Position numbers and translations under genes: made by a program. Below are positions 1-55,309 of a stretch of 64,000 bases of DNA, piece after piece. The DNA comes from Naegleria gruberi (Eukaryota). How positions within the stretch are numbered: position 1 is the first letter of the stretch; each line of letters begins with the position of its first letter. The notes beneath the pieces are model-generated. The model saw only the letters and a list, made by a program, of their open reading frames with translations. It was not told the DNA's origin and ran no database searches. The DNA is taken from assembly GCA_000004985.1 (NCBI GenBank), contig GG738858.1; one strand, given 5' to 3'.

Positions 1-117
1 AAATAAGTTAAATTTTAAAAAAATTAAACATGTTCAAGTTTTTTCAGAATGGTTATTTGAATTTAATTTTATTAATGAAAATACAAAAAAATTTATTAAA
101 TTTATTAAATATTTAAA

Positions 118-1832
118 TTAAATATCTTGAATTTCTTTTTTTAAAATTTCTAAATTTTGATCAAATCTAATAAATTTACCAAATTGATTTAAATTATTAT
201 ATAAATTATTCATAAAATCATCCATAAAACAAAAACATAATAATTTAAAATGTCTAATTTCAGATTGTTCTAAATATGGTAATTGTTTTCTTTTAATATC
301 AATTAAAATTTTACAAATTGGATCAATTAAATAAAAACCAAAATCTAAATTTTCTAATAAATCTAAAAAACAAATTTCTTTTAAATCATTTAAATAAATT
401 AAAATATCATTTAATAATTCAGCTAGAGGTAAAAATTCTAAAATTTTTAAATTATTTTGATAATTATCTTTAAATTTATATTTTAAAATTGATTCTTTAA
501 AATTATTTAAAAATAAATTCATAAAAAATTTAAAATTATAATTTAATTTTTTAATAAATAAATTAATAATAATAGGTCTAATATCAATTCCAATTTTAGA
601 TAAAGTATTTCCTAAAAATAAACATTCATTTAATAATTTTTTATATTCTTCTCCATTTAAAATTGAATCTTGTAAAAAATTATTTAAATTATTTAAATAT
701 GGTTTAATTAAATGTTGAATACATGAAGATAAAATTAAATCTAAATTTGTAAATATACTTTTATATTGTGTTATAATTTCAAATATAAAATTTTTATATA
801 AATTTGTTAATTTTATAAAATTTTCAAAATTATTTGAAAAATCTAATTGTTGATTTAAATAAAAAATTCTTGATTGTAAAAATAACATTTTAATTTCTTC
901 TTCATTTTGTGTTATTTGCATTCTTTTTAAAATTCCAATTATTTGTATACTATTTTTAATATTAATTTCTTGTTTTAATTTATAAATTAATTGTGATAAT
1001 ATTGTTTTCATTATTAAATTAATTTCAATTATTATATTTTTAGTAATTTCTATATTTGGATATTGTTCATATATATCATATCCAATTTCATATATATCTA
1101 ATGCTTCTGTATATAATTGATTTTGTATACATAATTTTAATAAATTTGGTATTTCTAATATTTGTAATATTCTATTTTGATTTTCATTTAAAATTAAAAT
1201 TTTACTCTTTTCAATTTTATATTCAGATTGTTGTTGATATTGTAAAGTTTCTAATAAATTTTTAATTTTTAAATAAATTTCATCATTAATTGTAATTGTT
1301 AATTCATTTTTTAATTTATTAGTATTAGAATTAGAATTATTATTAGAATTATTAATAGTATTAGATGATGGTGATGATGTAGATATTGATTATTATTAGA
1401 ATTAATAGAAGGTGATATTGTTGTTGTTGTTGTATTTAAAAGTGATAAATTATTTAAATCATCTAATTTTTGATAATATTCATTTAATATATCCTTTTTT
1501 AAATCTAGTAATTGAATACATTCTGATTGAAGTTTTTCTGTTTCTTGTTTAATACTTTGAAACACTTTTTCATTATTTAAAAATACATTATAGTTTTTAG
1601 ATGAAAATTCAATCATTCGCTTTTTTAAATTTGTTAATTGTTGAGGAATTTCATATTCTTGTTCTCTAATTAAATGTTCTATATTATTAGAAAAATAATG
1701 ATGAAGATGATTAGAAGATGATGATGTTATTGTTGATGATGATGATAGCGATGCTGATGATGAAGGAATATTAAATAGTGAAGATGATGATGATGATGGT
1801 GTGATGGTCATGGATGAAGAAAGGCTTGTCAT
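118..1832 (-). CDS. Vps51/Dor1 (COG8)-like vesicle-tethering complex subunit. Single exon, with an apparent 1-nt frameshift at about 1385-1400.
   Basis: ORF 1311..1832 (-) and ORF 118..1011 (-) join into one continuous reading frame if a 1-nt indel is allowed inside the (AAT)n tract near 1385-1400. There are no g residues there, so no GT..AG intron is possible. The frame-0 tail 'HHHHHLILLIIL' is junk, and the other frame carries sensible coding sequence through to 118. The N-terminal coiled-coil segment 'IREQEYEIPQQLTNLKKRMIEFSSKNYNVFLNNEKVFQSI' resembles the Vps51/Dor1 domain. Confidence 0.4.
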
Positions 1833-2072
1833 TTTTTTATTACGTGGGCTTTTTTGATCAATAGATATTAATTGATGATATTGTAAATCATCATCACTAT
1901 ATCGGAATCTTTAAATTACACACAGATGGATAAATCTAATAGCATTGAACAAAAAGGCTAATAACAATTTGATGGATTCATAATTTGTATTGTACTTTTT
2001 ATTGGTGTGAAGTTGGTGAAGAAGGCTTTGAAATAAATTCGTTAACATACAAATTTTAAATTTAAAAAAAAA

Positions 2073-13148: not shown

Positions 13149-14145
13149 ATGAAGAGAGGTCTTGTTCGCACCACTTCGATCCTCACGAGGCCATCAGCAT
13201 GGAGAAATTGTCCTATTGCTCTCGTTAATAATATTAATTCTATTGTTATTAATACAAATAATACACAAAGTAGAAACAAAACTATTGAAGCTAATAGAAA
13301 AGTTGATTTTAGTTGGGGACAAAATAGAAAGGCTGCCTTGAAGCACACTTATTTGACTGTTGAACAATCCAAGGAAGCCGTCAATGATTTGAAAAATGCT
13401 TTGGAAACTAATTACAAGACTGATATTGAAAATATCTCATCAATGTGTAAGTTTTTACTTTGAAAAAACGCGGAAATGTAGGAACGATATTAGCTAATGA
13501 AACCCAACTCTATGAAAAGTATATTCAATATATGGAATTAATGTTAAAAGCAAGGAGTGTTGTTTGTGCTAAATACGGTATTAATACATCCAACAATGAT
13601 ACTAATGGTATGTTTACAATGATGACAATTTTATTCTTACAATATAACAATATATAATAGATCGTAGACTTCGTATGTCTTTGGGAAGAAATAGTGCTAA
13701 TGATGAAGAATTACTTAAGCAAATTCAAGACTTGCACCAATATTTGGCCAAGTCTTGCTTCGGAATTGAAAAATTAGAAACTAGATTGGAAGAAATTCGT
13801 GTTTTGGGTGTTCACCAATTGGCTAAACAAAAAATGGTGGAAGAGTTTGAAAGTATAGCTCATACACTCTCATTGGAAGAATTCCTTCCAAAATCACGTA
13901 CAACATTGTTCGACCTTGAAAGAAGTTTGTTGAAATCATATGCTGTAGATATTGCTAAGGAAGAAAAGAGAAAGAGCCAATTTGAAAATGGTGAATTAAG
14001 TGAAGAAGAGAAAATGAAGTCCTATGTTGATTGGATTAAGGAAGTTCAAGTTGACGAATCTGAAATTCAAAACAAGTTGGACAAACCAGAAGATTGGATT
14101 ACATTTAGATTTATTTTGAACGATTTGCTTTTTAGACATGGATAA
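13149..14145 (+). CDS. Hypothetical mitochondrion-targeted protein of about 300 aa. Three exons: join(13149..13446, 13494..13607, 13661..14145).
   Basis: Three consecutive ORFs in frames 0, 2 and 1. GTAAGT donor at 13447 and GTATGT donor at 13608. Acceptors 'gatattag' (13493) and 'atataatag' (13660) restore the frame. The N-terminus 'MKRGLVRTTSILTRPSAWRN' looks like a mitochondrial presequence. Confidence 0.55.
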
Positions 14146-26240: not shown

Positions 26241-26801
26241 ATGATCAAACAATCGCTCATTGCTCTTGCTGCTACTATCTTTGCTGTCATCTTGATGATG
26301 AATGTTGTCAAGGCTGAACAAATGGCCGCTCAAGAAAGTGCTGCTTCTGCACCAAATTTTGCTGAAATTTGTAGTTTGCCAAATAATAATTGGGCTCCAA
26401 TAATGGGTGTTCCTTGTAATCCAAATAATTTTACCTTGTTAGTTTCACCAACTACAAGAGTACAAATTACTGGTTCTAATTTCATTGCTAATTGTGGTAT
26501 TCAATATACTCCTGTTTATACTTTTGATATGAATGCTGGATATGTTGAAACTTCTCAATTGTGTAATATCAAATCTGTTTTCAGAGGAGGTGATAGAGTT
26601 TCAGTTTGTAAGACTTCAAATTCTTTGGCCATGTATCCAACTCCAATTCTTTCTGGAAAGGCTTCTTATAATTTTGTTCCAGGTCAATATGGTTTGGTTT
26701 TATCTGATCCAGTTTTCACTGGACAACGTATTTATGTTTCAAAGGTTTTAGTTGGATCTGCAATTGGTTGGGTTCAATCTGATTACATTTGTTTGGCTTA
26801 A
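26241..26801 (+). CDS. Small secreted cysteine-containing protein with a signal peptide.
   Basis: The N-terminus 'MIKQSLIALAATIFAVILMMNVVKA' is signal-like. Eight Cys residues. No homology recognised. Confidence 0.5.
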   Translation: MIKQSLIALAATIFAVILMMNVVKAEQMAAQESAASAPNFAEICSLPNNNWAPIMGVPCNPNNFTLLVSPTTRVQITGSNFIANCGIQYTPVYTFDMNAGYVETSQLCNIKSVFRGGDRVSVCKTSNSLAMYPTPILSGKASYNFVPGQYGLVLSDPVFTGQRIYVSKVLVGSAIGWVQSDYICLA

Positions 26802-27039: not shown

Positions 27040-28711
27040 ATGATGAACCAACAAACAAGTCACCAACATGCAGAAAATGCTTCGGAAGAAATAATTGAAT
27101 CATTTTCACCCTATTCTTGTGTTTATTGTAGAAAGGCACATCGTAAATGGTTAGTTTCAAAGTTATTAATCATGATTAATTTTATATTTATCTATATTAT
27201 TAGTGGTAAGTATTCTATTAATATTTAAATTAATATTATTAATATTTAATACATCATTCCATAAAGATAGAAAATTGCCATCATGTTCTAAATGTAAAAG
27301 TAGAAATTCGCCATGTGAATATGTTGATTTAAAAAGAAGGAAGAATATTCAAATTGGATCATCATCTGTTCAGGAATGTTTGGATTTACAAAATAATTTA
27401 AAACAATTGAATTTAATGGATGGAAATGATTTTGTACAAAATGATTTATTTGCATCTTTGAGAATGAATATAATTGGAGCTTATTTTGAAATAATTTGTT
27501 TGGGATGTCCTTTTTTGGAAAAAGAAACACTTGAAAGTTATTTATATTCAAAGGAAATTTTACAATCTAATAGATTAATACTTGCATTGGTATTTTCAAT
27601 TCAAACTCTTGTTGGTAAGTTAATTTTTTAAATTTACTATAAAAGGAAAGAGCAAAGATTTGGATTTGTAGATTTGGCATTTGAAAGTTATAAGAAAACT
27701 CTTTCAATTTTACCAAATGATAAAGCAGATCAATTTTATGCAGCATGTGTTTATGTAAATTTAGGAATTTACTTAATTGGAGAAGGTAAAAAGAAGGAAG
27801 CTAATTTTTATGCACATTGCTCTGATTACTATTTTAAACAATTAGATTCTAATTATCAACATAATGAATTTGATAGAAATTTAATTTGGTTTAAAATGAC
27901 ACTGGAATACATGTCTAGTCCATTATATCCATTAATGGCATCTCAAGAATTGATTGATAATTACAAAATTATATTGAAACATAACATGCCAATGGAATGG
28001 CAAGAAGTAGTGATGGATTTGAAAAATTCAACAATATCTAATGTTGAAAGCAGAATCAAAGTGTATCAATTAATTGCATTCACTTTACAGGGAGAGAGAA
28101 GAGTTGGAGGTTATGGAGTTTCATTATGTGAAATTATTTATTTATCAATGCATTCATGTATTTCAATTTCTTTCTATTCATTGGTAGATCCAATTTATTT
28201 TAAAGATCAAATTTATGCTGAAACTGTTAAAGCAGCAGAATTGACAGAATATGAACTATTTTCCTATTCTGCCCCTCAAGTAATTATGAATATTCTAGTT
28301 GCTATTAAGGTACATTTAGAAATGCAACAATTAGTGGAGAGTGGACAAATTACAGGAGTCTCCTTACAAGATTATTACAAAATTATTGCAAAGAATTATA
28401 GAGCTGTAAATATTTTGAGAAAAAAGTATAGAGTGATAGATGCACAACATTCAGATATTGTTACAAAACTTGAGGAACTAAATAAGGAGGTAGATAAGGA
28501 ACCTTCGCCTCAGCAATACAATATTGATGATAAGATGAAGAGATTGGAGGATTTTGAAAGTCAACTCAGTTCTGTCATGAAAAAATTTGTTAGTATGCTT
28601 CCATTTAAAGAAAAAGAAAACCAGCCACAAATGGAAGAACTCAATGGATTGGAATTCTATACAGACATGTTTTTATTGGATGATACAGATGATTTATTCT
28701 TAGAATTTTAA
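27040..28711 (+). CDS. Zn(II)2Cys6 (GAL4-type) binuclear-cluster transcription-factor-like protein, multi-exon. The last intron is 27615..27670. The 5' splice structure is unusual (see findings).
   Basis: 'SCVYCRKAHRK' (C-x2-C-R-K-x-H-x-K) followed by 'DRKLPSCSKCKSRNSPCEY' (C-x2-C-x6-C). GTAAGT donors at 27216 and 27615. The acceptor 'tttgtag' at 27670 is in phase with the ORF starting at 27674. Confidence 0.5.
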
Positions 28712-28720
28712 TAGGGTAAA

Positions 28721-31506
28721 TTATTTGACCATCTTTTTTGGTGCATCAAAATAACCACATGTTTGAAAGATGGTTTCACACATTTTAACTACTGCCTTCC
28801 GTTTTGATTCTTTCTTCCCTTTGTGTGGATCTCCTTGCACAGTACCAATTGGTTCAACAGTGCATGATGTAACATATCCTAACTTTGGTACCACTTGCTC
28901 TGAAAAAGTTGGGTGAGTCCTATAATTTATATTACAATGGTGTAATAAGGCGTTCATTATTGCATTATTTGAGATTGTTGACATAAATACATCCTTATCA
29001 GTTATTCTTATAGTGCTGCCTTTGTATTTGCTTTGAAGTTCTCTAGTAGTGATATTTGTATTGATCTCTTTTTCAAGAGTTTGATTGATTTTCTCATCCA
29101 CAATAATTGTATGTTTGTATCGTTCCTTATAAATTTCGGTCCAAGAACTTGTAGGGAAGATTGCTAAATCTCTATCAAGAAATTTCCTCAGCACTTCTAG
29201 TGATGCTGCATTCTTGGCATCTTGTTTTGATTTGAACATTGAAGATGAGGTCAAAACAAAGTAACTGGCTGCTTGCAAACCAAATTCTACCATTGAACGA
29301 TCATAATTGTTCAGTTTGATTAGAATACGAACAAAGAATAGATGTCCAACCTTGACTACCTGAAATATTGGTTTTACACCAAATAATTTTTCACATGTCA
29401 ACGTTAAGACAGTAGATTGAGTATTAGTGTTTTCTGTAAATTCGAACAGTTTCAATATAGTTTCCTCAACTTTGTAAATTGGTTCGCTATTCCATATGTA
29501 TTCGAAAATATGACTAATTACCATCTGTTTTAGCCCAATATTTTGTAAATGTAATTTTCTATAATAAACATCAGGATGTATCTTTTCAGATTTGGTAAGA
29601 AGTCCAATAGAAATTATCATTTTCTGTTCTTGAGTTTGATATTTTCCATATGAAGAGCTTGCTTCCACAGAATTAGAATGATGAATGCAATAAAATTCGG
29701 AATTTGCTGATCTAGCTCTTCCTCTTGATTGAATCATTGTTTTTGTTGTTTCAATTCCATCCAATCTAATAACAAGTGAACAAGCAGGAACATCTAAACC
29801 TTCTTCTGCTACACTTGTTGAAATAAGAGTATTTACAATTCCCTGTCTGAAATTATCTAGAATAGTATTTTGTTGATTTGATGTCATTCCACTCTTTCCA
29901 AGTAGAATATCAACTTTTAAATAATCTTTTAGGTCTGGTTCTGATTGTAAAAATTCTAAAGTCTCCTTACAACCAATTCTAGTTTTTACAAATATTAAAG
30001 CTCGTAATTCTTTTCCAGTTTCTTTGTATTGTTTCAATAACTTAGCCAACGCGAATCTCTTTGCACAATGAATTGGTAGAGAGCCTAAAGATAATTCATG
30101 TTCATAGCACATATGTGAAATTCCACAAAATTTTAAAGTTTTTAAAATCTCAATCTCCGTAAATGATTTTAAAAATTTTAACAAGTGATCCCAACTATTT
30201 TGTGTTAATTCAATAATTTTAATTCTACATACGCTGCAGTACATGATCTATGGTCATTGATCATTAAAGATTCATTAAGGACTGATAGAGTTTTACATGT
30301 TAAAATCAAATTTGAATTCTGCTTGTTAGATTTTGAATATCTAATAAAATCATCCAAATTTCTATTATCATCTTCCTTGTCATAAGTTCCTGTAACGTGA
30401 TTCATTTTCAAATCAAGCCATTCATCAGCTTCATCTGTTCCAAATTTGGAATCATCCATATCTACATCAGCATCTGATGAAAAATTTTCCAATAATTTAA
30501 TTTTAACTCCTCTAATAGCATTGAAAATGAAATCTCTCAATCTCAAAGAGAATGGATCCATATCTACTGAAATAGATTTCATTGAAGGTGTGAATACAAA
30601 TGTACCAAGCTCTTCTTCATTATTCTCAACTTGTCTCACTGTACAATCCAAATCATGTCCCAGTTGGAGTATCTTTAATAATGTCTCTGCAATGGTGTTT
30701 TTGGCAGCTGGTGTAGCACTCAAACCAAGTATTCTAGGTATTAATAGACCTGCATGCTTTCTTGGTTTATAATAATCTCTCATTAATACTTTAAATGGAT
30801 GATTTGAATGAGTATGATGGCATTCATCAAATATTAACAATTGCAAATCATCAAAAATGTCAGAATATTGTAAAACATTCAAAATGATTTGGATTGTACA
30901 GACAAGTACAGTAAAATCCTTTGTTTCTAATTTCCAATTCTTGATTGATTTCTTTTCTCCATGAAAAGCTCCAACTTTTTCAATTCCAAACTCTCTCAAT
31001 GCCCTCGCCTGCTGTTCAACAAGTGAAATTTGATTCACAATAAACAAAACCTTCTTGAATGGATTTAAATTCAACATGTGATGAATTAAAAGTGCAGCAA
31101 TAAATGTTTTACCAGCACCTGTCGGAGCAACAATGATTGTATTTTCATCTTTACAATGTTCTACCAATTCCTTTTGATATTCTCTTGCATTGGAGAGTAG
31201 TGTACTAGTTGCTGTAGAATTAGAAACAACACTTTCCGAACATGATCCTACCAATATATTATCGTTGTATGATGTTGTAGATGATTCATCAAATTGATGT
31301 TCGTTATCATCACCATCACCATGATGAATAGTGGAATTAAAATTGGTTGTTGTATTTAGTGTCGGAACATGTAATATTCTTCTTCCCTCATTATCAAACT
31401 CTTCTTCGAGTTTTAATTTTTCAAATGTTGTTTCCTCTTCTTGTTTAATTGATGAAGATGATGTAATTGGCCATGCAAATCCTGAGCATTTGATGTTATT
31501 GAACAT
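28721..31506 (-). CDS. Dicer/RIG-I-like DExH-box helicase with two C-terminal dsRBD-like motifs and no RNase III domain. Two exons: join(31506..30233, 30194..28721).
   Basis: Motif I 'IIVAPTGAGKTFIA', motif II 'LLIFDECHH', motif III 'LGLSATP', motif VI 'QSRGRARS'. dsRBD-like C-terminal helices 'SKQDAKNAASLEVLRKF' and 'KGKKESKRKAVVKMCETI'. A 38-nt intron has a GTATGT donor after 'tgtactgcagc' and the acceptor 'aaaatag'. It joins the two ORFs in phase: '...HRSCTA|AWDHLLKF...'. Confidence 0.8.
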
Positions 31507-33064: not shown

Positions 33065-33137
33065 TATACCCTGTGGGACTCGAACCCACAACCCCCGGCT
33101 CCGTAGGCCGATGCTCTTCCAATTGAGCCAAGGGTAC
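33065..33137 (-). tRNA. tRNA-Arg, anticodon ACG. 73 nt, no intron, G1:U72 wobble.
   Basis: Minus-strand sequence GTACCCTTGGCTCAATTGGAAGAGCATCGGCCTACGGAGCCGGGGGTTGTGGGTTCGAGTCCCACAGGGTATA. It folds as a cloverleaf: acceptor 7 bp, D-stem GCTC/GAGC, anticodon stem TCGGC/GCCGG with loop CTACGGA, T-stem GTGGG/CCCAC with loop TTCGAGT. Confidence 0.9.
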
Positions 33138-47493: not shown

Positions 47494-48720
47494 ATGACAT
47501 CAACAAGTGAACAAGTCCCACAACAACTTGCTGTTGTTGAAAGTGGAATCCCATTAATTAAAGAAGGAGATACAATTCTAGTAAAATTAAATAGTGGTTC
47601 AATGATTTTACAACAACATATTAAACCAGAAACAAATTTAAAAATCGGAAAGAAACAAACTTTTCCTTTAAAACTTTTAATAGGACAACCATATTATGCC
47701 TTCTATGAAATTTTGTCATCACAAAATGAAGGAGAGAAGCAACCATCAGTAGTTTTAAAACGTATGTTGTATGATCCTGATAGTGAGGAAGCTTCTGCTG
47801 TTATTCCTGGTGATGATGAAGCACCACAAGAAGAAATGCAAGATGAAGAAGGTGAAACTGTTGATGCTAATACAAAGAGATTAATTGATAATAACAAATC
47901 ACAAACTTTAACTCAAGATGAAATTTTAGAATTAAAAAAACAAGGAGTTGAAGGAAAGGAAATTATCAGCAAATTAATTGAAGGAAGTAAATCTTTCCAA
48001 GTTAGAACTCAATTTTCCCAACAAAAATACTTGAAGAGAAAGAAGAAGAAATATTTAACTTACTTTAAAGTTATTGATCCTTCTGCATATGATATTTGTG
48101 ATTTTTACTTTTCAAAGAATCCTGAGAAAATTAGTCATATGAGAGTTGATGGACTTGCTCAATTATTAACTTTAGGTTCTATTTATCCAAATAGAAAAGT
48201 AATGGTAATGGAAACTTGTATGGGTTTAGTTACTGCTGCTGTTTTTGAAAGAATGGGATGTTATGGTGAAATTATTCGTGTAGCTCCAGATGATATGCTT
48301 GGTAAACATGTTCATGCTGTTACCTATTTGAATATTAACAGAAATTTAGCTTCTAGTGTTGTTAGAGATGTTCCATTTGGAAAACTTGTATCTGGTGATA
48401 TGTCTGATGAAAATGCTACTGATGAAAATATGGTTGATTGTTTATTGATTGCTACTAATCAATATAGTCCAATCTCAGTTCTTACAAACTTGTATCCTTA
48501 TCTTAGAGAATCAGGATCATTTGCTATTTATTCTTCATACAGAGAACCATTAGAAGAATGTCACAACAAATTAAAGGATGACAAGTCAGCTGTTTTGGTT
48601 CAATTGACAGAAACATGGATGAGAGAATACCAAGTTCTTCCAAAGAGGACTCACCCAATGATGACAACGTCTAGTGCAAGCGGTTTCGTTTTGTCAGGTA
48701 TCAAAGTAAAGATTGATTAA
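47494..48720 (+). CDS. trm6: tRNA (adenine58-N1)-methyltransferase non-catalytic subunit TRM6 (GCD10/TRMT6).
   Basis: 'NKSQTLTQDEILELKKQGVEGKEIISKLIEGSKSFQVRTQFSQQKYLKRKKKKY' matches human TRMT6 'GKSQKLTQDDIKALKDKGIKGEEIVQQLIENSTTFRDKTEFAQDKYIKKKKKKY'. Also 'MVMETCMGLVTAAVFERMG' and 'ETWMREYQVLPKRTHP'. Confidence 0.85.
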   Translation: MTSTSEQVPQQLAVVESGIPLIKEGDTILVKLNSGSMILQQHIKPETNLKIGKKQTFPLKLLIGQPYYAFYEILSSQNEGEKQPSVVLKRMLYDPDSEEASAVIPGDDEAPQEEMQDEEGETVDANTKRLIDNNKSQTLTQDEILELKKQGVEGKEIISKLIEGSKSFQVRTQFSQQKYLKRKKKKYLTYFKVIDPSAYDICDFYFSKNPEKISHMRVDGLAQLLTLGSIYPNRKVMVMETCMGLVTAAVFERMGCYGEIIRVAPDDMLGKHVHAVTYLNINRNLASSVVRDVPFGKLVSGDMSDENATDENMVDCLLIATNQYSPISVLTNLYPYLRESGSFAIYSSYREPLEECHNKLKDDKSAVLVQLTETWMREYQVLPKRTHPMMTTSSASGFVLSGIKVKID

Positions 48721-51683
48721 TCTGTGTCAATAATTTTCTTTGGAGATCCACCAAATGATTGTCTTCTTGTCAGTCTTCTCATGTTGGCTGAATCACTAAG
48801 ATTCTCACTTGTTGCAACTGGAGTTCTTGTTTGCTTAATAGGACTATTTCTTCTCTTGACTGTTTTTCTTATCTTTTTACCTTCGATTTTTTCTGCGGCA
48901 GGATCATTACTACTTGTGCTAGTGTCAACACTATCATCAGAATCAGCGTTTGGATTAAAGACAGATATTGGACTGATATCACTAATAGATCTTGGTGTTT
49001 CGTAAGCCTTCTTTTCCATGTCAGGAGTTTTGGTTTGTTGACTTGTGGTAGGTGGTTGTACTGGCTGAACCTTATCTTTAATTACACTACTTCCAGATGA
49101 AAGCAAAGGGGTATTCGTGTTGGTTTCAATATTTGGAGTTGATGGATTGGAAGTGCAAATCGTTAACTTTTCTGGTGTTGATTTGAAACTGTCAATAGTC
49201 GAGGTTCTAGATTCTATTTTTTTCTCCCTTACTTTATCTTTCAAGGACTTATTTTCTTCCATAACAGTTTTGTTAATCTCAAGAATTCTTCTGTTGGTAG
49301 TGTTCAAATGTTCTACTTGTTCTTCAAGCTCTTTAATTCTTTCTGAAGAGGAGAGTTGGGCTGAATTTTTGAGAGTTTGTCGCAACCTATCTTCACTGTC
49401 AGCAGCTTTTTCTTTTTCAAGCATCATCATTCTTTCGCTTGATTTTATCTTTGCATTCTTCGTTGATATTTCTCTTTCTAATTTTCTAATTGTTTCTTTT
49501 TGAGATTCCGTCTCAGTGTTCAAAAATGAAACTTGTTCCTGAAGCTTTTTCATCGAATCCTCAAGCTGTCGTTTTCTTTCAGTGGATGATTCCAAAACCT
49601 CAGTTGTTTGTTTAAGAGTTTCTTCTGTGTTTGAATTTTGTAATCTCACTTTGTTATAGTTATCCTTTAATTTGGCAATAACTTCTTGTAATTCACCAAT
49701 ATTTCTTTGCAATTCCGACTTATTTTCTTGTAAGATGGCTATTGTTCTTTGCAGGTTTGTGTTTTCTTCTTTAAGTGCATCATTTTCCAATCTTTCAGTG
49801 TGTAATTGATCTCCAAACTTATCTTTCTGCTCTTTTAGCTCTTGGAATGAGTTTTCCAAATCATTTCTGAGATTTTGAACGTCTTGCATCAATTTTGAGT
49901 TTTCTTGTTTGTAAACAACTATTTTGTCTGACTGCTCTTTAGTTAGAGTTTCTTGGGAGGTAAGATCTTTTTTGAGTTTCTTGATTGCATTACTTAAATT
50001 CAACATTTGGTCTTTCATTTTAGATTTTGAGTCAGACAGCTGCACAATCTCAAAGTTCATTTGCTCTTGTAATGACTGGAGTCTCTCCTCATAATTTTTG
50101 ATAATCTGTTCATTTTCCTTATTCTTTTCCATTATTAGTGATTCAATAAAATTGTTGTGATAGTGAGGCATTGTTTCATAAATCCAATTAGTCATTAAAT
50201 CCGCCAACAATGTGTTTTTATCTCCTTTTGCTTTTTCGTTATATGAATCCAAACACTCCCTAAATTTCAAATTCATTTCTTCAATATTTCGAAAACTTCC
50301 AGATGTTGAAATCTGTGAAAAGGAAGAGCTCAGAATCTTGCTGTTGTACTCATAATTTATACTCCTAACCTCCTCTCTCACTATTTTAAAAATTTGAACA
50401 ATTGAATCATGTAATTGTCCAACATGGAATTGAACATCTCTTACCACAAGCTTTGAATTTTCCAAGAAATAAGAAACTGCTTCTGATTCTGATTCGAAGT
50501 GAATGTTTTCCAACTCTGTTTGATCCACGTTCTGTCTTAACAGCTTTTGCATTTTTGTTTTGTAAATTTTGATAGATTCTGAATGAACAGCATCACATTC
50601 AGTTTTCACTACATTACTCCAACAAGAATCCACTATAATAGAGCCATCATTGATGGCATTACAATAGTTCTCACACAAACTTATGAACATCCTACCATTC
50701 AACATTCTTCCTCCCAGTTCTTTAGGAGCAACTGTGTCTAATATTTTTTGTTTGAGTTTTTCTATTTGATTCCTAAACTCTGGTCTTATTTCATAGGATT
50801 CCAATTTTGAGGCATTTTGTAATTTCTTTTCATCGTGAATAGGTCTTACCAGAGTGAAACAATCTCTATCTCGGAAATATTGTTTCAGAGAGGCCTTAAT
50901 TTGTTGCTTATTCCTTTCAGTTTCGGTGTATCTTTCCTCACTGGATAAGGCAAATTCAAGATAATTCTTTGGTGTAATTTGTAAATCCAACGAAAAGTCT
51001 CTCACAACCCATAAAAAAGATGGGAATATTGCTTGATTATCCAATCCTCCAAGTTTTGATTTAACATATTTTGAAAGTTCAGTTACCAACCTAATAGATT
51101 TAGAAACTAGTTCAAACCAACAACTTACCCTAATCTGGTTATTGCGTTGTCATCAATGCTTCCTTGACTATTATAAATAAACATTGAACTCATTAGTAAA
51201 GCAAGAGAGAACACCTAAAACTGTTGAAGAAATACAACCAATAACAACTTACTTGTGTATCATAGGTCTCATTTGCACTGAAGGATCCAATTCCCTCCGA
51301 ATCAACAATTAATAATCTAAAATCTGGATGGTTGTCATTGCTTACTTTCATCGGAACGCTCCAGACCCATAATCCTTTTGTGCAGGGTAAATGTGAGGGA
51401 CTGGTAGTAAAGCTGTATTATTATTTACTAATGAATATTATTGGTTTTTAAAAACATACCCATCATTCCTATCTAAAATTTGATTAAGTAAAAAGCTTTT
51501 CCCCGATCGATAAACTCCAGCTATCGAAAGTACAGCAACCGGTTCTTTAATTTTCGAAATCACAGAGATTGCTTTTTTATCCACTTGAAACTTTCCATCA
51601 ATGTATGATATCAAAGGAATTTGTTGTGGCTGCAGCGTTGACAGCGAGGGCGATGTTGAATAGTCTTGTAGTGATGGTTCCAT
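48717..51683 (-). CDS. Guanylate-binding-protein (GBP) family large GTPase with a long C-terminal coiled coil. Four exons: join(51683..51460, 51412..51253, 51214..51129, 51090..48717).
   Basis: G1 'LSIAGVYRSGKSFLLNQIL', 'TKGLWVWSVP', 'LLIVDSEGIGS', 'VFSLALLMSSMFIYNSQGSIDDNAITRL', 'FLWVVRDFSL'. These match human GBP1 block by block. Introns of 47, 38 and 38 nt, all with GTAAGT/GTATGT donors and phase-consistent acceptors. Confidence 0.85.
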
Positions 51684-51949
51684 TTTTTACTAAGGATTGG
51701 TTCAAAAATATGGCGCCAAAACATGTATTTGCTTTTAGCGCCAAAAATAAATCAATATATTTGATGTATGGTGACATATTCTGAGGAGTGAATAAGAGTT
51801 AATACTATTAATATTAATTATTCTGAACAACAACATCATGAGATTGATTATTTATCTTTTTAATAGACTTAAAACAAACTATTTTGTAAAAATTCAAAAA
51901 GGTATTGTAATATCAATAGAATTTGTTATTTACATTTAGTGCCAAAAAA

Positions 51950-54900
51950 ATGCAACCAGCCAATCGAAAGCCAATCAAGGTCAAACCATCGAAAGGTTCT
52001 AGCACACAACAACCTGTAATTATAACAACCTCATCATCTAATCATCAACAAAATAATTCCGAATCACATTCTCCATCACCTCTAATTTTATCACCCACAA
52101 CCACTGGCACAAATAATTATGTATTTGAAAATGAAGGAGAACAAAACGAACAAAAAACCAACAAGAAAATCAGAGCAAAAAGAACAGGAGGGATATTGGG
52201 AAACTTTTTCGACGTTTCTAAAAATTTAAATGAAAATACACTAAATCAAATGGAATCCAAGATGAAAGAAATTATTGAATCGAGAAATTTGTTTAAAGAA
52301 AATAACTTGGAGTTGTGTGAAATGATCATGTCTGCTGATGTGGAATCGAAGAATGAATCAATTTCTCAACAAGAAATTCTCAAAATTGATTTGATAAATA
52401 GGCAAATGGCCGAATTGGAATCATTTGAAACAAATCTGAATAACTTTATTCAATCAAATGGCTCTTCTGGAATTACAAATCATCTTGTAAACGCTGTTAA
52501 TACAAGAAATGCTATGAGAAATGAGTGTATGAATAATCTTAACGAAGTTACTAACTTGTTGGGTGAAACATTGGAATCAATGAAAAATGACATCCCCGTA
52601 GAAAGGATTCAAAAAATAGATGAAATTCATTCAAAAATTCTTTTAGAAGAAGATGTTTTATCAGTTTCTGGTTCTGGTGAGTCTTTCAATATGTATGAGT
52701 TTAATAGGAGATCAAAGGAATACTTTGAGTGGGTTAAAAAATCCAGTCCAAAACTGATTATTCAATACAAGGAAACAAAGGCTGTTTTCAAGAAGTTTCT
52801 AGAAGCAATGGAAAAAGAGCTAAATCTTATGAAAGAGGTTAAAGAGGAGGAGAAGAAAATGATGGATAATTTTGAGTATATAATTACCTACACTCCTGAA
52901 TATTTGGAGGCAAAGCGACAAACAACTGCTGAGCCAAGTGAAAGAAAGACTCATATCAAGGAGTTACATAGCTACTATTTGAAACGTAAAATTGAAATGG
53001 AATCCAAAACACAACTACCACTTAAACCAGACCTTGAAAGCGTCAATCTATTTTACAATCAGCTTAACTCTTTGAAAACAGACTTGAGAGAGGCTAAAAG
53101 AAATCATCTAAAATTGAAATTTGAAAAAGAAAATCATGAGTTGGATGGAGTTTCTCAGTCTATTCTACAAATTTCAACACAAAAAGTTCAAGAAGCATCT
53201 GAGGTAGTTCATAGAATCGAAGAAAAGATTCAGCTATTTGAATCTAATCTAGAAAAATCCATCAAATTGCATCCAGAAATTTTAATTTACATTAACAGTT
53301 TCTCTAAGAATGATGATCTTATTCCTATATCAATTAAGGATACAAAGTTGGAGGTGAAGAGATCTATCAAAGATTATGAAATATTGAAAATAATCAATCC
53401 AAGGGTTTGCAAAGCAAAATTTGCTAACCAAATATCAATAATCAAACAGTACTCTTTTTCAGATAGCAAATCAAGAAAAGAGTTTATGAAGGAGGTTCAA
53501 ATTTTACACAAAATGAATCATCCTTGTATTGTAAAGATAGAAGCGTACTTTTGTGAGAATGACTTTGTATTTATTCAAATGGAACACAAAGGAGATTTAA
53601 CTCTAGCTGATTGGCTCCTTAAATCTCCTTCAGAATATGAAAAACGAAATGTATTTCACTCTGTGGCACAAACTTTGAAATATGTGCACGACTTTAATAT
53701 TATTCACTGTGACATCAAACCAGAGAATATAATAATGTCACCAATCGGTTCTAAATCAATTGGATCCGTACAGGAGATATATGAATCATATAGACCTATT
53801 CTTATTGACTTTGATATATCAGTTGACAAGAATTCCTTACAAAATTCTTTAGCAATCCGATCCACTTTAACTTACTTGGCTCCAGAAGTTGTTCATGCAG
53901 CTTCTACAGGTGCAGATTTCAAGAGTGTTTTGAATACATCAATAGATGTTTGGTCATTTGGTGTTATGATGTTTAAGGCATACTATCCAAATGATGAGGT
54001 GTTGCTTCTTCCAAACGAACACTCAGTAAGAATACCAGAACATGAAAATCAATATTTGCAAGATCTTTTATCAAATATTTTACAAAGAGACGCAAAAGAT
54101 AGACCTTGTGCTGAAGATATTTACTCTCATATCTATTTCAACTCGTCCATCATGAATGAACTAGTATCTCAAAAACAAATAGTTAGTACAGAAGACAAGA
54201 TGCAATCATTCAATAGATTTCTGCATCACTACAAGAAAAGAATGCAAAGGAACACTTCAGATGTTATTCAAATACGTATGAGAAGAGATGCAATAGTAGG
54301 TCACACATTACAAGCATTTTCATCTATGGAAATCAATGACTTACTTTTGAGACTTCAAGTGCAATTTGTTGGTGAAATTGGAATGGATTTGGGAGGAATT
54401 ACATCTAATATGTATACAGAGTTCTTCAGACAATCAATACAAAATGATCATAACATTTTTGAATGTGGTTCAAGCTCTAAAACTGGAGGTTACCTACCAA
54501 AGGCAGATGCACCAGTTGAGGTTTGTGAAAGTATTGGAAAAATTTTAATCAAAACAATTTACGATCAAAGAGTTATTCCAGAAGTGCTTTCTCCTTTCAT
54601 ATTCAAGTTTCTTTCACACAAATATTCATCAAGCGATCCTGATTACAATTCTTTGCAAGTAACTTTCAGAGATTTGGAACAATTTGATGAATCTATGGCA
54701 AGATCTTTGAGAATGCTCCTTACTCATGAAGGAGTGCACGAATGGGAAATTTCTTTTGATGGCCTGGGACAAGACTCTAATAGAATGGTAAATGATCAAA
54801 ATAAGCACGATTATGTTAAAATGAAAATGAGAAATGTTCTCTTACTCTCAAGATTAGAACAATTGAAAGCTATTAGGAAAGGTTTTAATTCGCTTGTTGA

Positions 54901-55309
54901 GCTTCAGCCTCAGCTGGCATTATTTAGTTGGAAAGAGCTAATGCTGCTTTGTTGTGGAAAGGATTATATTGATGTAAAATCAGTGATTGACCTATTGAAG
55001 TTCAAAGATTTCCCTACTAATAGTAGGACTCCTTTATTTTTCACTCAATTTATTTCTTCACTCTCTAGCATTCAGTTAAGGCAATTTATTGAATTCTCCA
55101 CTGGTCAATGTGGAATTTCCTACGGATGGCAATCCAAGGCTCTGAGCATCACTGTACAATACTCTTCCTCTTCAGTTGATTCATTACCTGTTTCTCATAT
55201 TTGCTCATTCATATTAGACCTTCCTGACTATAACAATTATCAACTTTTAGAAACGAAAATTAAGCAAGCTTTCGAATTTACCTCATCCTCCGGCTTTTAC
55301 ATTGCTTAG
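51950..55309 (+). CDS. Protein with a coiled-coil N-terminus, a central protein-kinase-like domain and a C-terminal HECT ubiquitin-ligase domain.
   Basis: Kinase segments: 'ISIIKQY', 'EFMKEVQILHKMNHPCIVKI', 'HCDIKPENIIM', 'LIDFDISV', 'LTYLAPEV', 'DVWSFGVMMF'. HECT segments: 'LQVQFVGEIGMDLGGITSNMYTEFF' and C-lobe 'LPVSHICSFILDLPDYNNYQLLETKIKQAFEF' with the catalytic Cys. It is a single uninterrupted 1120-aa frame from the ATG at 51950. Confidence 0.8.
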   Translation: MQPANRKPIKVKPSKGSSTQQPVIITTSSSNHQQNNSESHSPSPLILSPTTTGTNNYVFENEGEQNEQKTNKKIRAKRTGGILGNFFDVSKNLNENTLNQMESKMKEIIESRNLFKENNLELCEMIMSADVESKNESISQQEILKIDLINRQMAELESFETNLNNFIQSNGSSGITNHLVNAVNTRNAMRNECMNNLNEVTNLLGETLESMKNDIPVERIQKIDEIHSKILLEEDVLSVSGSGESFNMYEFNRRSKEYFEWVKKSSPKLIIQYKETKAVFKKFLEAMEKELNLMKEVKEEEKKMMDNFEYIITYTPEYLEAKRQTTAEPSERKTHIKELHSYYLKRKIEMESKTQLPLKPDLESVNLFYNQLNSLKTDLREAKRNHLKLKFEKENHELDGVSQSILQISTQKVQEASEVVHRIEEKIQLFESNLEKSIKLHPEILIYINSFSKNDDLIPISIKDTKLEVKRSIKDYEILKIINPRVCKAKFANQISIIKQYSFSDSKSRKEFMKEVQILHKMNHPCIVKIEAYFCENDFVFIQMEHKGDLTLADWLLKSPSEYEKRNVFHSVAQTLKYVHDFNIIHCDIKPENIIMSPIGSKSIGSVQEIYESYRPILIDFDISVDKNSLQNSLAIRSTLTYLAPEVVHAASTGADFKSVLNTSIDVWSFGVMMFKAYYPNDEVLLLPNEHSVRIPEHENQYLQDLLSNILQRDAKDRPCAEDIYSHIYFNSSIMNELVSQKQIVSTEDKMQSFNRFLHHYKKRMQRNTSDVIQIRMRRDAIVGHTLQAFSSMEINDLLLRLQVQFVGEIGMDLGGITSNMYTEFFRQSIQNDHNIFECGSSSKTGGYLPKADAPVEVCESIGKILIKTIYDQRVIPEVLSPFIFKFLSHKYSSSDPDYNSLQVTFRDLEQFDESMARSLRMLLTHEGVHEWEISFDGLGQDSNRMVNDQNKHDYVKMKMRNVLLLSRLEQLKAIRKGFNSLVELQPQLALFSWKELMLLCCGKDYIDVKSVIDLLKFKDFPTNSRTPLFFTQFISSLSSIQLRQFIEFSTGQCGISYGWQSKALSITVQYSSSSVDSLPVSHICSFILDLPDYNNYQLLETKIKQAFEFTSSSGFYIA

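What the first reader, a model, noticed from the sequence alone, without database searches (positions are those of the whole stretch)
27121..27300. A 2-nt micro-exon or recursive splice would restore a perfect Zn2Cys6 cluster
Exon 1 ends '...CVYCRKAHRK' + 'tg' at a GTTAGT donor (27150). Every single-intron solution gives TGA or a hydrophobic junk insert. If the 64-nt intron 27150..27213 is removed, 'tg' (27214-15) is followed by a perfect GTAAGT (27216). A second 51-nt intron then ends at 'cataaag' (27266). The product is 'CVYCRKAHRK-C-DRKLPS-CSKCKSRNSPC', an exact C-x2-C-x6-C-x6-C-x2-C-x6-C GAL4-type motif with the usual K-C-D. This implies a 2-nt exon or a recursive splice through a regenerated 5' splice site.
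Basis: inference. Interest (0 to 1): 0.5.

Follow-up and report, generated by a model that had tools for sequence, protein, structure and literature searches.

The report
Probable two-nucleotide exon in amoeba gene
A zinc-cluster transcription-factor gene of a Naegleria-like amoeba can only encode its conserved DNA-binding motif if two short introns separated by a 2-base exon ("TG") are both removed, which would be one of the smallest exons known but is so far inferred from comparison only, not from RNA.

Summary
Intron A is 27150..27203 (54 nt, GTTAGT…TTAG). The "TG" is 27204-27205. Intron B is 27206..27266 (61 nt, GTAAGT…AAAG).

No single GT/GC-AG intron restores the six-cysteine motif. Only two double-intron models do: the 2-nt exon and a weaker 6-nt variant. 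Both require intron A.

Relatives show the gene family belongs to heterolobosean amoebae (Naegleria, Willaertia), not fungi.
- Intron B sits at an old, conserved position (TGY G|GT…AG|AY). It is found in N. fowleri, W. magna and two metagenome relatives.
- A closer relative has no intron there and reads …HRKCDKKLPSC… contiguously.
- Intron A occurs in none of these relatives. It looks like a lineage-specific intron gained 2 nt upstream of the old one.

The first half of the DNA-binding domain, upstream of intron A, is under strong purifying selection (pN 0.07, pS 0.93).

Best reading: two ordinary introns removed one after the other, leaving a 2-nt exon (confidence about 0.7). No 5' splice site is "regenerated"; it is intact in the DNA.

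There is no RNA evidence. The only near-identical independent assembly stops 290 bases short of the site.

This would be a new member of a known kind: 1-nt exons are documented in Arabidopsis and Fusarium.

The parts
27040..27149 (+). Exon 1. Runs from the ATG to ...CGT AAA TG. Encodes MMNQQ...SPYSCVYCRKAHRK plus the first two bases (TG) of the Cys3 codon.
   Evidence: Residues 25-36 are conserved with L011 at pN 0.07 and pS 0.93.
27150..27203 (+). Intron A, 54 nt, GTTAGT...TTAG, phase 2 inside the Cys3 codon. It is lineage-specific and absent at this position from every relative examined. It is open in frame (18 codons) if retained.
   Evidence: The donor type GTTAGT is also used at 56356. 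Absent in L001, L011, L012, L013 and L014. No similarity to intron B, to exon 1 or to other window sequence.
27165..27180 (.). Perfect 16-nt palindrome ATTAATCATGATTAAT inside intron A. Significance unknown.
   Evidence: Self reverse-complement match. It gives no stable RNA fold (z = +0.96).
27204..27205 (+). Proposed 2-nt exon 'TG'. T is the third base of the Cys3 codon (TG|T). G is the first base of the Asp codon (G|AT).
   Evidence: It corresponds to the last two exon bases (TGY G|GT) in front of the conserved intron in relatives.
27206..27266 (+). Intron B, 61 nt, GTAAGT...AAAG, phase 1 in the Asp codon after Cys3. This is an ancient, conserved intron position.
   Evidence: The same position is used in N. 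fowleri L012 (61 nt), W. magna L014 (52 nt), L001 (38 nt) and L013 (38 nt).
27267..27614 (+). Exon 3. Begins AT AGA AAA TTG CCA TCA TGT. Encodes (D)RKLPSCSKCKSRNSPCEYV... through ...SIQTLV.
27615..27650 (+). Intron C, 36 nt, GTAAGT...GGAAAG, phase 1. The acceptor was chosen by homology: it yields EQRFGFVDLAFES, which matches the relatives.
   Evidence: The same intron position is present in L011.
27651..28711 (+). Last exon, through the stop codon. The complete product is 506 aa.
   Evidence: It is 41% identical to the L001 protein over the full length. Window 27557 onwards is 99.6% identical in DNA to L002.

Best explanation
The gene encodes a 506-aa Zn2Cys6 (zinc-cluster) transcription factor of a heterolobosean amoeba.

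Its family carries an old intron immediately after the first base of the Asp codon that follows Cys3 (TGY G|GT...AG|AY). That is intron B (27206..27266). In the lineage of this window a second, complete spliceosomal intron, intron A (27150..27203), has been added 2 nt upstream, inside the Cys3 codon.

The two introns are each recognised across the intron, as is usual for genomes whose introns are 35-60 nt long. They are removed in two separate splicing reactions, probably one after the other because their signals abut. This leaves the dinucleotide TG (27204-05) as an internal exon. The mRNA then reads ...CGT AAA TGT GAT AGA AAA..., which encodes ...HRKCDRKLPSC..., an intact six-cysteine cluster.

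**Shown:**
- the sequence anatomy;
- the absence of any single-intron solution;
- the conserved position of intron B;
- the absence of intron A in relatives;
- selection on exon 1.

**Inferred:**
- that intron A is actually excised;
- the order of the two reactions;
- how intron A arose.
For: 1. No single GT/GC-AG intron keeps the six cysteines. Of all double-intron models only two do, and both use intron A.
2. Pfam Zn_clus scores 38.4 bits for the 2-nt model. With intron A retained it scores 19.5, below the 21-bit cut-off.
3. Relatives encode the same peptide.
   - L011/P0004, about 60% identical, reads CAT CGA AAG TGT GAT AAA AAA CTC CCA TCA TGT with no intron.
   - P0003 reads CDRKLPSC.
   - N. 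fowleri reads HKRCDKKMPSC.
4. Intron B's position is shared by N. fowleri (an annotated gene model), W. magna (annotated) and two metagenome relatives.
5. Intron A has a consensus-type donor that is also used elsewhere in the window (GTTAGT at 56356). It has a TAG acceptor, TTAAT/TCTAT branch-like motifs and a length of 54 nt. About 16 other confident introns of the window are 35-55 nt, with GTAAGT, GTATGT, GTTTGT or GTTAGT donors and YAG or AAG acceptors.
6. The AG|TG|GTAAGT arrangement is far from chance.
7. Exon 1's part of the domain has 7.0 synonymous against 2.0 non-synonymous differences versus L011 (pS 0.93, pN 0.07). The rest of the 506-codon frame is intact.
8. Exons of 1 nt are spliced accurately in vivo in Arabidopsis APC11 (PMC4674806) and Fusarium CYP621A (PMC12940212), so size alone is no obstacle.
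Against: - No transcript evidence of any kind was available.
- Intron A is not seen in any other sequence.
- The only independent near-identical assembly (L002/L003, 99.6% identical) starts at window position 27557 and does not cover the site. The DNA sequence itself is therefore unreplicated and the age of intron A is unknown.
- If intron A is very recent, the dN/dS signal says little about the time since its insertion.
- Intron A is a multiple of 3 and stop-free, so a retained-intron protein is possible.
- Branch-point assignment in such AT-rich introns is ambiguous.
- Splicing from 27150 directly to 27266, which skips the exon and gives TGA, could compete.
Confidence: 0.72

Rival explanations
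1. A 6-nt exon instead of a 2-nt exon. Intron A is removed as above, but the second intron is 27210..27270 (GTATTC...ATAG). This leaves TGGTAA (27204-27209) as the exon and gives ...HRKCGKKLPSC...
For: It is the only other double-intron model with the full cysteine spacing. Pfam Zn_clus scores 35.2 bits, only 3 bits less than the 2-nt model. The 'KK' matches CDKK of L011, L001 and N. fowleri.
Against: - The donor GTATTC matches none of the donors of the window's confident introns, whereas GTAAGT 4 nt upstream is the commonest donor.
- It replaces the Asp that is invariant after Cys3 in all relatives examined.
- It moves the intron 4 nt away from the position conserved in four relatives.
Confidence: 0.07
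2. Intron A is not spliced, or not efficiently. The 54-nt segment would be a recent insertion that disabled the DNA-binding domain. The locus would then be a young pseudogene, or would produce a protein with an 18-residue hydrophobic insert in place of Cys3 (…HRKWLVSKLLIMINFIFIYIISDRK…) that no longer binds DNA through a zinc cluster.
For: The segment is 54 nt (3 x 18) and has no in-frame stop, so removing intron B alone gives an open frame. Intron A is unique to this sequence. There is no RNA evidence for its removal.
Against: - A random AT-rich 54-mer that begins GTWWGT and ends AG has an expected probability of about 3e-5 from the base composition of the region (my calculation from the composition). 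The segment has the anatomy of an intron, not of arbitrary inserted DNA.
- Being stop-free over 18 AT-rich codons and a multiple of 3 is only about a 1-in-20 coincidence.
- The remainder of the gene (506 codons) is intact, and the five other cysteines and the basic residues are conserved.
- The retained form falls below the Pfam cut-off.
Confidence: 0.13
3. Sequence or assembly error. The true genome would read AAATGTG|GTTAGT, with two bases lost in the assembly. A single intron 27150..27266 would then suffice and the internal AGTGGTAAGT would be fortuitous.
For: The site is not covered by the independent assembly.
Against: - It requires a 2-nt deletion outside any homopolymer.
- It also requires a chance internal AG|TG|GTAAGT (3 in 200,000 shuffles). 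That motif happens to reproduce the exon end plus donor (TGY G|GTAAGT) seen in four relatives.
- The resulting 117-nt intron would be about twice as long as any other confident intron of the window (the scan range was 28-130 nt).
- Long intact ORFs throughout the window, and 99.6% identity with one gap over 3.9 kb to L002, argue against frequent indel errors.
Confidence: 0.04

Closest known systems
Single-nucleotide exons: Arabidopsis APC11 (Guo & Liu 2015, PMC4674806) and Fusarium CYP621A (Nelson & Syed 2026, PMC12940212)
   Same: - An ultra-short internal exon is flanked directly by AG and GT.
- It lies inside a codon of a strongly conserved motif.
- It was detected because exon phases cannot otherwise be joined.
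- It is supported by comparison with an intron-less relative.
- It is typically missed by annotation pipelines.
   Different: - Those exons are 1 nt (AG|G|GT) and are backed by cDNA, RNA-seq or reporter assays. Here the exon is 2 nt (AG|TG|GT) and rests on inference only.
- The Fusarium exon is shared by 20 or more orthologues. Here the upstream intron is seen in one sequence only.
- The organism here is a heterolobosean amoeba, not a plant or fungus.
Trichoderma Xlr2 microexon inside a Zn2Cys6 domain (PMC11121469)
   Same: A micro-exon lies within the coding sequence of a zinc-cluster DNA-binding domain. Its inclusion decides whether the protein has a functional domain.
   Different: The Xlr2 exon is 20 nt, encodes PCRRCE (two cysteines), is conserved across Trichoderma and is shown to be regulated by glucose. 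Here the exon is 2 nt, contributes parts of two codons, and nothing is known about regulation.
Spliceosomal twin introns (stwintrons) of Pezizomycotina and Lipomyces (PMC5639578, PMC5587772, PMC7138796)
   Same: An intervening region must be cleared by two consecutive U2-type splicing reactions. A young intron is inserted at or next to the donor of an older intron. Both bear on intron gain and on shifts of intron position by a few bases.
   Different: In a stwintron the internal intron interrupts a splice signal of the external intron (for example G|…|TAAGT in [D1,2]). The external intron therefore exists only after the first reaction, and no exon bases lie between them. Here both introns are complete in the DNA, either could be removed first, and two exon bases separate them.
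Recursive splicing at ratchet points or RS-exons (for example PMC6224609)
   Same: A 3' splice site lies almost immediately in front of a 5' splice site. A long intervening region is removed stepwise.
   Different: Recursive sites regenerate a 5' splice site by ligation of the upstream exon to AG|GTAAGT and leave no exon bases, or an RS-exon that is then lost. They serve to remove very long introns. Here the donor is intact beforehand, 2 nt are retained in the mRNA, and the introns are 54 and 61 nt.
Near intron pairs (NIPs) used in studies of intron gain and intron sliding (Lehmann et al. 2010, PMC2891723)
   Same: [quoted passage not shown]
   Different: NIP introns are described as 'very unlikely to have coexisted' within one gene. 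Here both positions, 2 nt apart, are occupied in the same gene copy. That would be the coexisting intermediate the NIP framework treats as very unlikely.

Membership tests
Zn2Cys6 binuclear cluster DNA-binding domain (Pfam PF00172) | Six cysteines with spacing C-x2-C-x6-C-x5-12-C-x2-C-x6-8-C. | tested here: met
   Met only by the two micro-exon models. Not met by any single-intron model.
Zn2Cys6 binuclear cluster DNA-binding domain (Pfam PF00172) | Score above the Pfam gathering threshold (21 bits) over the full-length profile. | tested here: met
   38.4 bits over profile positions 1-38 of 39 for the 2-nt model. With intron A retained the score is 19.5 bits and only the second half of the profile matches.
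U2-type GT-AG spliceosomal intron (applied to intron A, 27150..27203) | 5' GT with the genome's consensus extension, a 3' AG, and a length within the genome's range. | tested here: met
   GTTAGT…TTAG, 54 nt. The window's other confident introns are 35-55 nt with GTAAGT, GTATGT, GTTTGT or GTTAGT donors and YAG or AAG acceptors.
U2-type GT-AG spliceosomal intron (applied to intron A, 27150..27203) | A branch-point motif at a suitable distance from the 3' splice site. | tested here: inconclusive
   TTAAT lies 24 nt and TCTAT 9 nt upstream of the AG. Other window introns show TTAAC, CTAAT or TTAAT 8-23 nt upstream. AT-richness makes such matches weak evidence.
U2-type GT-AG spliceosomal intron (applied to intron A, 27150..27203) | Excision demonstrated in RNA. 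| not testable with these tools
   No transcript data are accessible.
Ultra-short micro-exon (15 nt or less) | An internal exon bounded by AG and GT that is required to join otherwise incompatible exon phases and to complete a conserved motif. | tested here: met
Ultra-short micro-exon (15 nt or less) | The same exon-intron structure is conserved in orthologues. | tested here: not met
   Intron B's position is conserved, but intron A is absent from L001, L011, L012, L013 and L014. The near-identical strain contig does not reach the site.
Recursive splice site (ratchet point) | Juxtaposed AG|GT with a zero-length exon, where the 5' splice site is reconstituted by the first ligation. | tested here: not met
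   Two exon bases separate AG and GT. GTAAGT and its -3..-1 context (GTG) are identical before and after removal of intron A.
Stwintron | An internal intron interrupts the donor, branch or acceptor element of an external intron, which becomes functional only after the first excision. | tested here: not met
   Both introns have complete, uninterrupted signals in the DNA. No shifted GT-AG pairing yields the same mRNA.
Introner or repeated-intron family, or tandem-duplication-derived intron (origin of intron A) | Sequence similarity to other introns or elements, or to the adjacent 54 nt. | tested here: not met
   - Only short AT-rich matches occur elsewhere in the window.
- Intron A against intron B reaches a score matched by 654 of 2000 shuffles.
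- Ungapped identity to the flanking 54 nt is 16/54 upstream and 22/54 downstream, which is chance level.
- Only 64 kb of the genome could be searched.

The most novel reading that the evidence does not exclude
The locus is a living intermediate of intron sliding or intron gain. A newly acquired intron coexists 2 nt from the ancient one, a state that near-intron-pair studies treat as practically never coexisting. The resulting 2-nt exon works as a three-way splicing switch for the transcription factor:
- inclusion gives an intact zinc cluster;
- skipping from 27150 to 27266 gives an immediate TGA;
- retention of the in-frame 54-nt intron A gives a DNA-binding-dead protein with a hydrophobic insert.

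This would be analogous to the glucose-controlled Xlr2 microexon of Trichoderma.
Probability: 0.15. Interest if true: 0.75.

Novelty: new member of a known kind. Interest (0 to 1): 0.5.

Why it matters
If RNA confirms it, this would be one of the smallest exons known.
- I know of no comparable case outside plants, fungi and animals.
- It would show that a spliceosome adapted to introns of 35-60 nt can process two introns whose 3' and 5' splice sites are only 2 nt apart.
- It would give a datable example of an intron gained next to an ancient one. That bears on how intron positions "slide" by a few bases.

There is also a practical point. Gene predictors will mis-annotate this transcription factor as truncated, split or lacking its DNA-binding domain. 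The same error may affect other genes in heterolobosean genomes. The N. fowleri orthologue is already split into two gene models in one annotation.

Tried and rejected
- **Single-intron models.** All GT/GC-AG combinations were enumerated and none restores the motif. A non-canonical acceptor (…AAAGA|T) would give C-x5-C. It scores only 27.1 bits, lacks the conserved Asp and lacks an AG.
- **My first model of intron 3.** I first set it to 27615..27671 (57 nt). That was wrong. Homology shows 27615..27650 (36 nt), which restores EQRFGFV.
- **Origin of intron A.** No significant similarity to intron B, to exon 1, to the flanking 54 nt or to anything else in the window. Neither tandem duplication nor a repeated element is supported, so the origin is unresolved.
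- **RNA structure.** Intron A folds no better than shuffles (z = +0.96). Intron B and the whole region are marginal (z about -1.8).
- **A second micro-exon candidate at 13608-13752.** It came from my scan but is false. A single intron 13608..13660 suffices.
- **Independent coverage of the site.**
  - L002/L003 (99.6% identical) start at window position 27557.
  - Exact look-ups of window ORFs 26241-26798 and 27040-27225 found nothing.
  - The spliced protein could not be looked up.
  - The exact 20-mer across the exon 1/intron A boundary is absent from genome contigs and viral contigs.
  - The metagenome scan used patterns inside the uninterrupted domain and returned only distant, mostly intron-less relatives.
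- **Source of the metagenome.** A literature search for the metagenome accessions found nothing. No paper in the library describes a 2-nt exon as such.
- **Tool behaviour.** The word-indexed protein search was erratic. P0002 (99% identical) was missed, and P0001 was missed.
- **Species.** The species of the window was not identified. Only the clade (Heterolobosea) is inferred, from the named family members.
Full report
**1. What is in the sequence**

The window is AT-rich (about 30% G+C) and gene-dense, and it is read with the standard genetic code. On the + strand an ORF starts at ATG 27040 and encodes MMNQQ…SPYSCVYCRKAHRK. After ...CGT AAA TG (27149) comes GTTAGT.

- The first intervening segment is 27150..27203 (54 nt) and ends TTAG.
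- 'TG' is at 27204-05.
- GTAAGT is at 27206-11.
- The second segment is 27206..27266 (61 nt) and ends AAAG.

Removing both segments gives …CVYCRKAHRK-C-D-RKLPSCSKCKSRNSPC….

**2. Is any simpler gene model possible?**

- I enumerated every GT/GC…AG intron in 27100-27300. Twelve keep the frame open and none keeps six cysteines.
- The 27150..27266 intron gives TGA TAG.
- The 27206..27266 intron gives an in-frame insert, WLVSKLLIMINFIFIYIIS, in place of Cys3.
- Because the genome reads AAATGG…AAAGATAGA, no single contiguous deletion of any splice type can yield TG[T/C]GAT.
- Among all double-intron models (17 stop-free), only two restore C-x2-C-x6-C-x6-C-x2-C-x6-C.
  - One is the 2-nt exon.
  - The other is a 6-nt exon TGGTAA with intron 27210..27270 (GTATTC…ATAG), giving CGKKLPSC.
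  - Both need intron A.
- Pfam Zn_clus scores are as follows.
  - 38.4 bits for the 2-nt exon.
  - 35.2 bits for the 6-nt exon.
  - 27.1 bits for a non-canonical C-x5-C solution.
  - 19.5 bits with intron A retained, which is below the 21-bit cut-off.

**3. Is it chance?**

- In 200,000 shuffles of the 117-nt region, an AG|YG|GT with both introns at least 30 nt appeared 122 times.
- With a GTWWGT donor it appeared 3 times.
- AGYGGTWWGT occurs once on the + strand of the 64-kb window, at this site.

**4. The genome's introns**

I joined long ORFs (60 or more open codons on each side) by short GT…AG segments that are needed to keep the frame. This gives about 16 confident introns of 35-55 nt.
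- Donors are GTAAGT (commonest), GTATGT, GTTTGT, GTAAGA and, at 56356, GTTAGT.
- Acceptors are YAG or AAG.
- Branch-like motifs TTAAC, CTAAT or TTAAT lie 8-23 nt before the AG.

Introns A (54 nt) and B (61 nt) fit this picture. A single 117-nt intron would be about twice the size of any other confident intron found in the 28-130 nt range that was scanned.

**5. Relatives**

*Which sequences were found*
- The word-indexed protein search gave few hits.
  - P0001 (contig L001): the full-length protein reconstructed from this contig is 41% identical.
  - P0002 (contigs L002/L003): 99.6% identical in DNA, but covering only window 27557-31419.
  - P0004 (contig L011): about 60% identical.
- An exhaustive HMM search found 109 family representatives.
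- All ten representatives examined that carry names are from Naegleria fowleri, N. gruberi or Willaertia magna.
- The window therefore comes from a heterolobosean amoeba, not a fungus. The species is not identified.

*Gene structure at the site*

| Sequence | Structure at the site |
|---|---|
| N. fowleri (L012, annotated XP_044557779.1) | AAA CGC TGC G\|GTAAGT…(61 nt)…CAG\|AT AAG AAA ATG CCA TCC TGT |
| W. magna (L014, KAL9646222.1) | AAG AAA TGC G\|GTATGT…(52 nt)…TAG\|AC AGA AGA AAG CCT TCT TGT |
| L001 | AGA AAA TGT G\|GTACGT…(38 nt)…CAG\|AC AAA AAA |
| L013 | AAA CGT TGT G\|GTAAGT…(38 nt)…AAG\|AC AAG AAA |
| L011 | CGA AAG TGT GAT AAA AAA, no intron |
| Window | CGT AAA TG\|[A, 54 nt]\|TG\|[B, 61 nt]\|AT AGA AAA |

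*What this shows*
- Intron B occupies an old, conserved position, phase 1 of the Asp codon after Cys3.
- The 'TG' plus GTAAGT in the window is simply the ancestral exon end plus donor.
- Intron A is an addition that splits the Cys3 codon 2 nt upstream, and it is seen nowhere else.
- A more distant zinc-cluster gene (L010) has a 28-nt intron 3 nt further upstream, at AA|G of the preceding Lys codon. This corner of the domain has therefore acquired introns repeatedly.

**6. Is the gene alive?**

- The full model gives 506 codons without a stop. Its exons are 27040-27149, 27204-05, 27267-27614 and 27651-28711. Intron 3 was corrected by homology to 27615..27650, 36 nt.
- The protein is 41% identical to the L001 protein over its whole length.
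- Against L011, the twelve codons of the domain that lie in exon 1 show 7.0 synonymous and 2.0 non-synonymous differences (pS 0.93, pN 0.07). This part has been kept under selection.
- This does not date intron A, so it cannot exclude a very recent disabling insertion.
- However, a random AT-rich 54-mer would begin GTWWGT and end AG with a probability of about 3e-5. This is my calculation from the composition.

**7. Mechanism (inferred)**

- Both introns have complete signals in the DNA.
- The exon-side context of donor B (-3..-1 = GTG) is the same before and after removal of A, because G precedes TG in both TTAG·TG and AAATG·TG.
- Either intron can therefore be removed first, and no splice site is regenerated.
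- The acceptor AG of A lies at positions -4/-3 of donor B, inside the stretch that pairs with U1 snRNA (established knowledge). Simultaneous recognition is therefore unlikely, and two consecutive reactions are expected.
- Direct pairing of donor 27150 with acceptor 27266 would skip the exon and create TGA.
- Retention of A is in frame.
- These two by-products could be noise or a means of regulation. There is no evidence either way.

**8. Origin of intron A**

- There is no similarity to intron B, exon 1, the adjacent 54 nt or the rest of the window.
- There is no significant RNA structure.
- A perfect 16-nt palindrome (27165-27180) is noted but unexplained.
- Insertion of a ready-made intron is the simplest scenario, with its mechanism (reverse splicing, transposon or repair-mediated) left open.
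- The alternative proposed for Fusarium, loss of bases at an exon end rescued by a cryptic micro-exon (PMC12940212), would need the improbable motif to pre-exist in an unusually long intron.

**9. Comparison with what is known**

- Exons of 1 nt are experimentally established in Arabidopsis APC11 (PMC4674806) and Fusarium CYP621A (PMC12940212). The latter paper cites computational reports of 2-5-nt exons in Arabidopsis, Drosophila and human.
- A 20-nt microexon inside a Zn2Cys6 domain acts as a switch in Trichoderma (PMC11121469).
- The present case is not a stwintron, because no splice signal is interrupted.
- It is not a recursive splice site, because the exon is not of zero length and no donor is regenerated.
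- It is a near intron pair whose two members coexist. Lehmann et al. (PMC2891723) call that very unlikely.

**10. Verdict**

- The 2-nt-exon interpretation is the best-supported gene model (about 0.7).
- The alternatives are a 6-nt exon (0.07), a non-spliced or disabled allele (0.13) and a sequence error (0.04).
- It is a new member of a known kind, the ultra-short micro-exon, in a new clade and with an informative evolutionary setting.
- It awaits RNA confirmation.

Noticed in passing
window 1-64000; L002/L003: The window comes from a heterolobosean amoeba related to Naegleria and Willaertia, inferred from the family members named. A 99.6%-identical strain is present in metagenome run ERR1078381 (PRJEB11402), covering window 27557-31419. 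The species itself was not identified.
   Followed up: partly
window 27615-27671: Intron 3 has two in-frame acceptors 21 nt apart: GGAAAG at 27650 and TTGTAG at 27671. Homology (EQRFGF conserved in L001, L011 and Naegleria) favours the 36-nt intron. Use of the distal acceptor would delete seven conserved residues, so alternative splicing is possible.
   Followed up: partly
L012 1501-3704 (N. fowleri VFQX01000063.1): The N. fowleri orthologue is annotated as two adjacent genes, FDP41_008730 (362 aa) and FDP41_008731 (269 aa). Another annotation (CAG4713173.1, 661 aa) joins them. This is probably a split gene model.
   Followed up: no
L010 3743-3770: A distant zinc-cluster gene on metagenome contig JAESGV010003497.1 needs a 28-nt intron (GTGTGT…CTAATTAACAATAG) at AA|G of the Lys codon before Cys3. 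That is 3 nt upstream of the position of intron A. It is a very short intron and a third nearby intron position in this domain.
   Followed up: partly
L001 4492-4539: The L001 relative has an additional 48-nt intron directly after the Cys1 codon (GCA TGC|GTATGT…CAACAG|TTG). This intron is absent from the window and from L011.
   Followed up: no
window 51923-55309 (+): One uninterrupted ORF combines a protein kinase domain (residues 496-739) with a C-terminal HECT ubiquitin-ligase domain (833-1120). This is an unusual domain fusion.
   Followed up: no
window 28721-31506 (-): This is a helicase gene with ResIII/DEAD and Helicase_C domains, possibly Dicer- or RIG-I-like. That label is my guess from domain order and was not tested. 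Its two long ORFs are joined by a 38-nt intron (30232..30195, GTATGT…AAATAG). It converges on the 3' end of the zinc-cluster gene with only about 10 nt between the two stop codons.
   Followed up: no
window 13447-13660 (+): The gene 13149-14145 has two short introns, one of about 35 nt (GTAAGT…TGTAG) near 13447 and one at 13608..13660 (53 nt, GTATGT…AATAG). An apparent micro-exon here from my scan is an artefact.
   Followed up: yes
window 33065-33137 (-): A single tRNA-Arg(ACG) gene. It is the only Rfam or ARAGORN hit in the window.
   Followed up: no
window 1-2000: The first 2 kb are only 16% G+C, against about 30% for the rest of the window.
   Followed up: no
window 48717-51089 (-): An ORF with N- and C-terminal domains of guanylate-binding proteins (GBP). 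Other ORFs carry LRR, ankyrin, BTB, U-box, HEAT-repeat, TAF2 and TRM6/Gcd10 domains. This gene content is typical of free-living amoebae rather than fungi.
   Followed up: no
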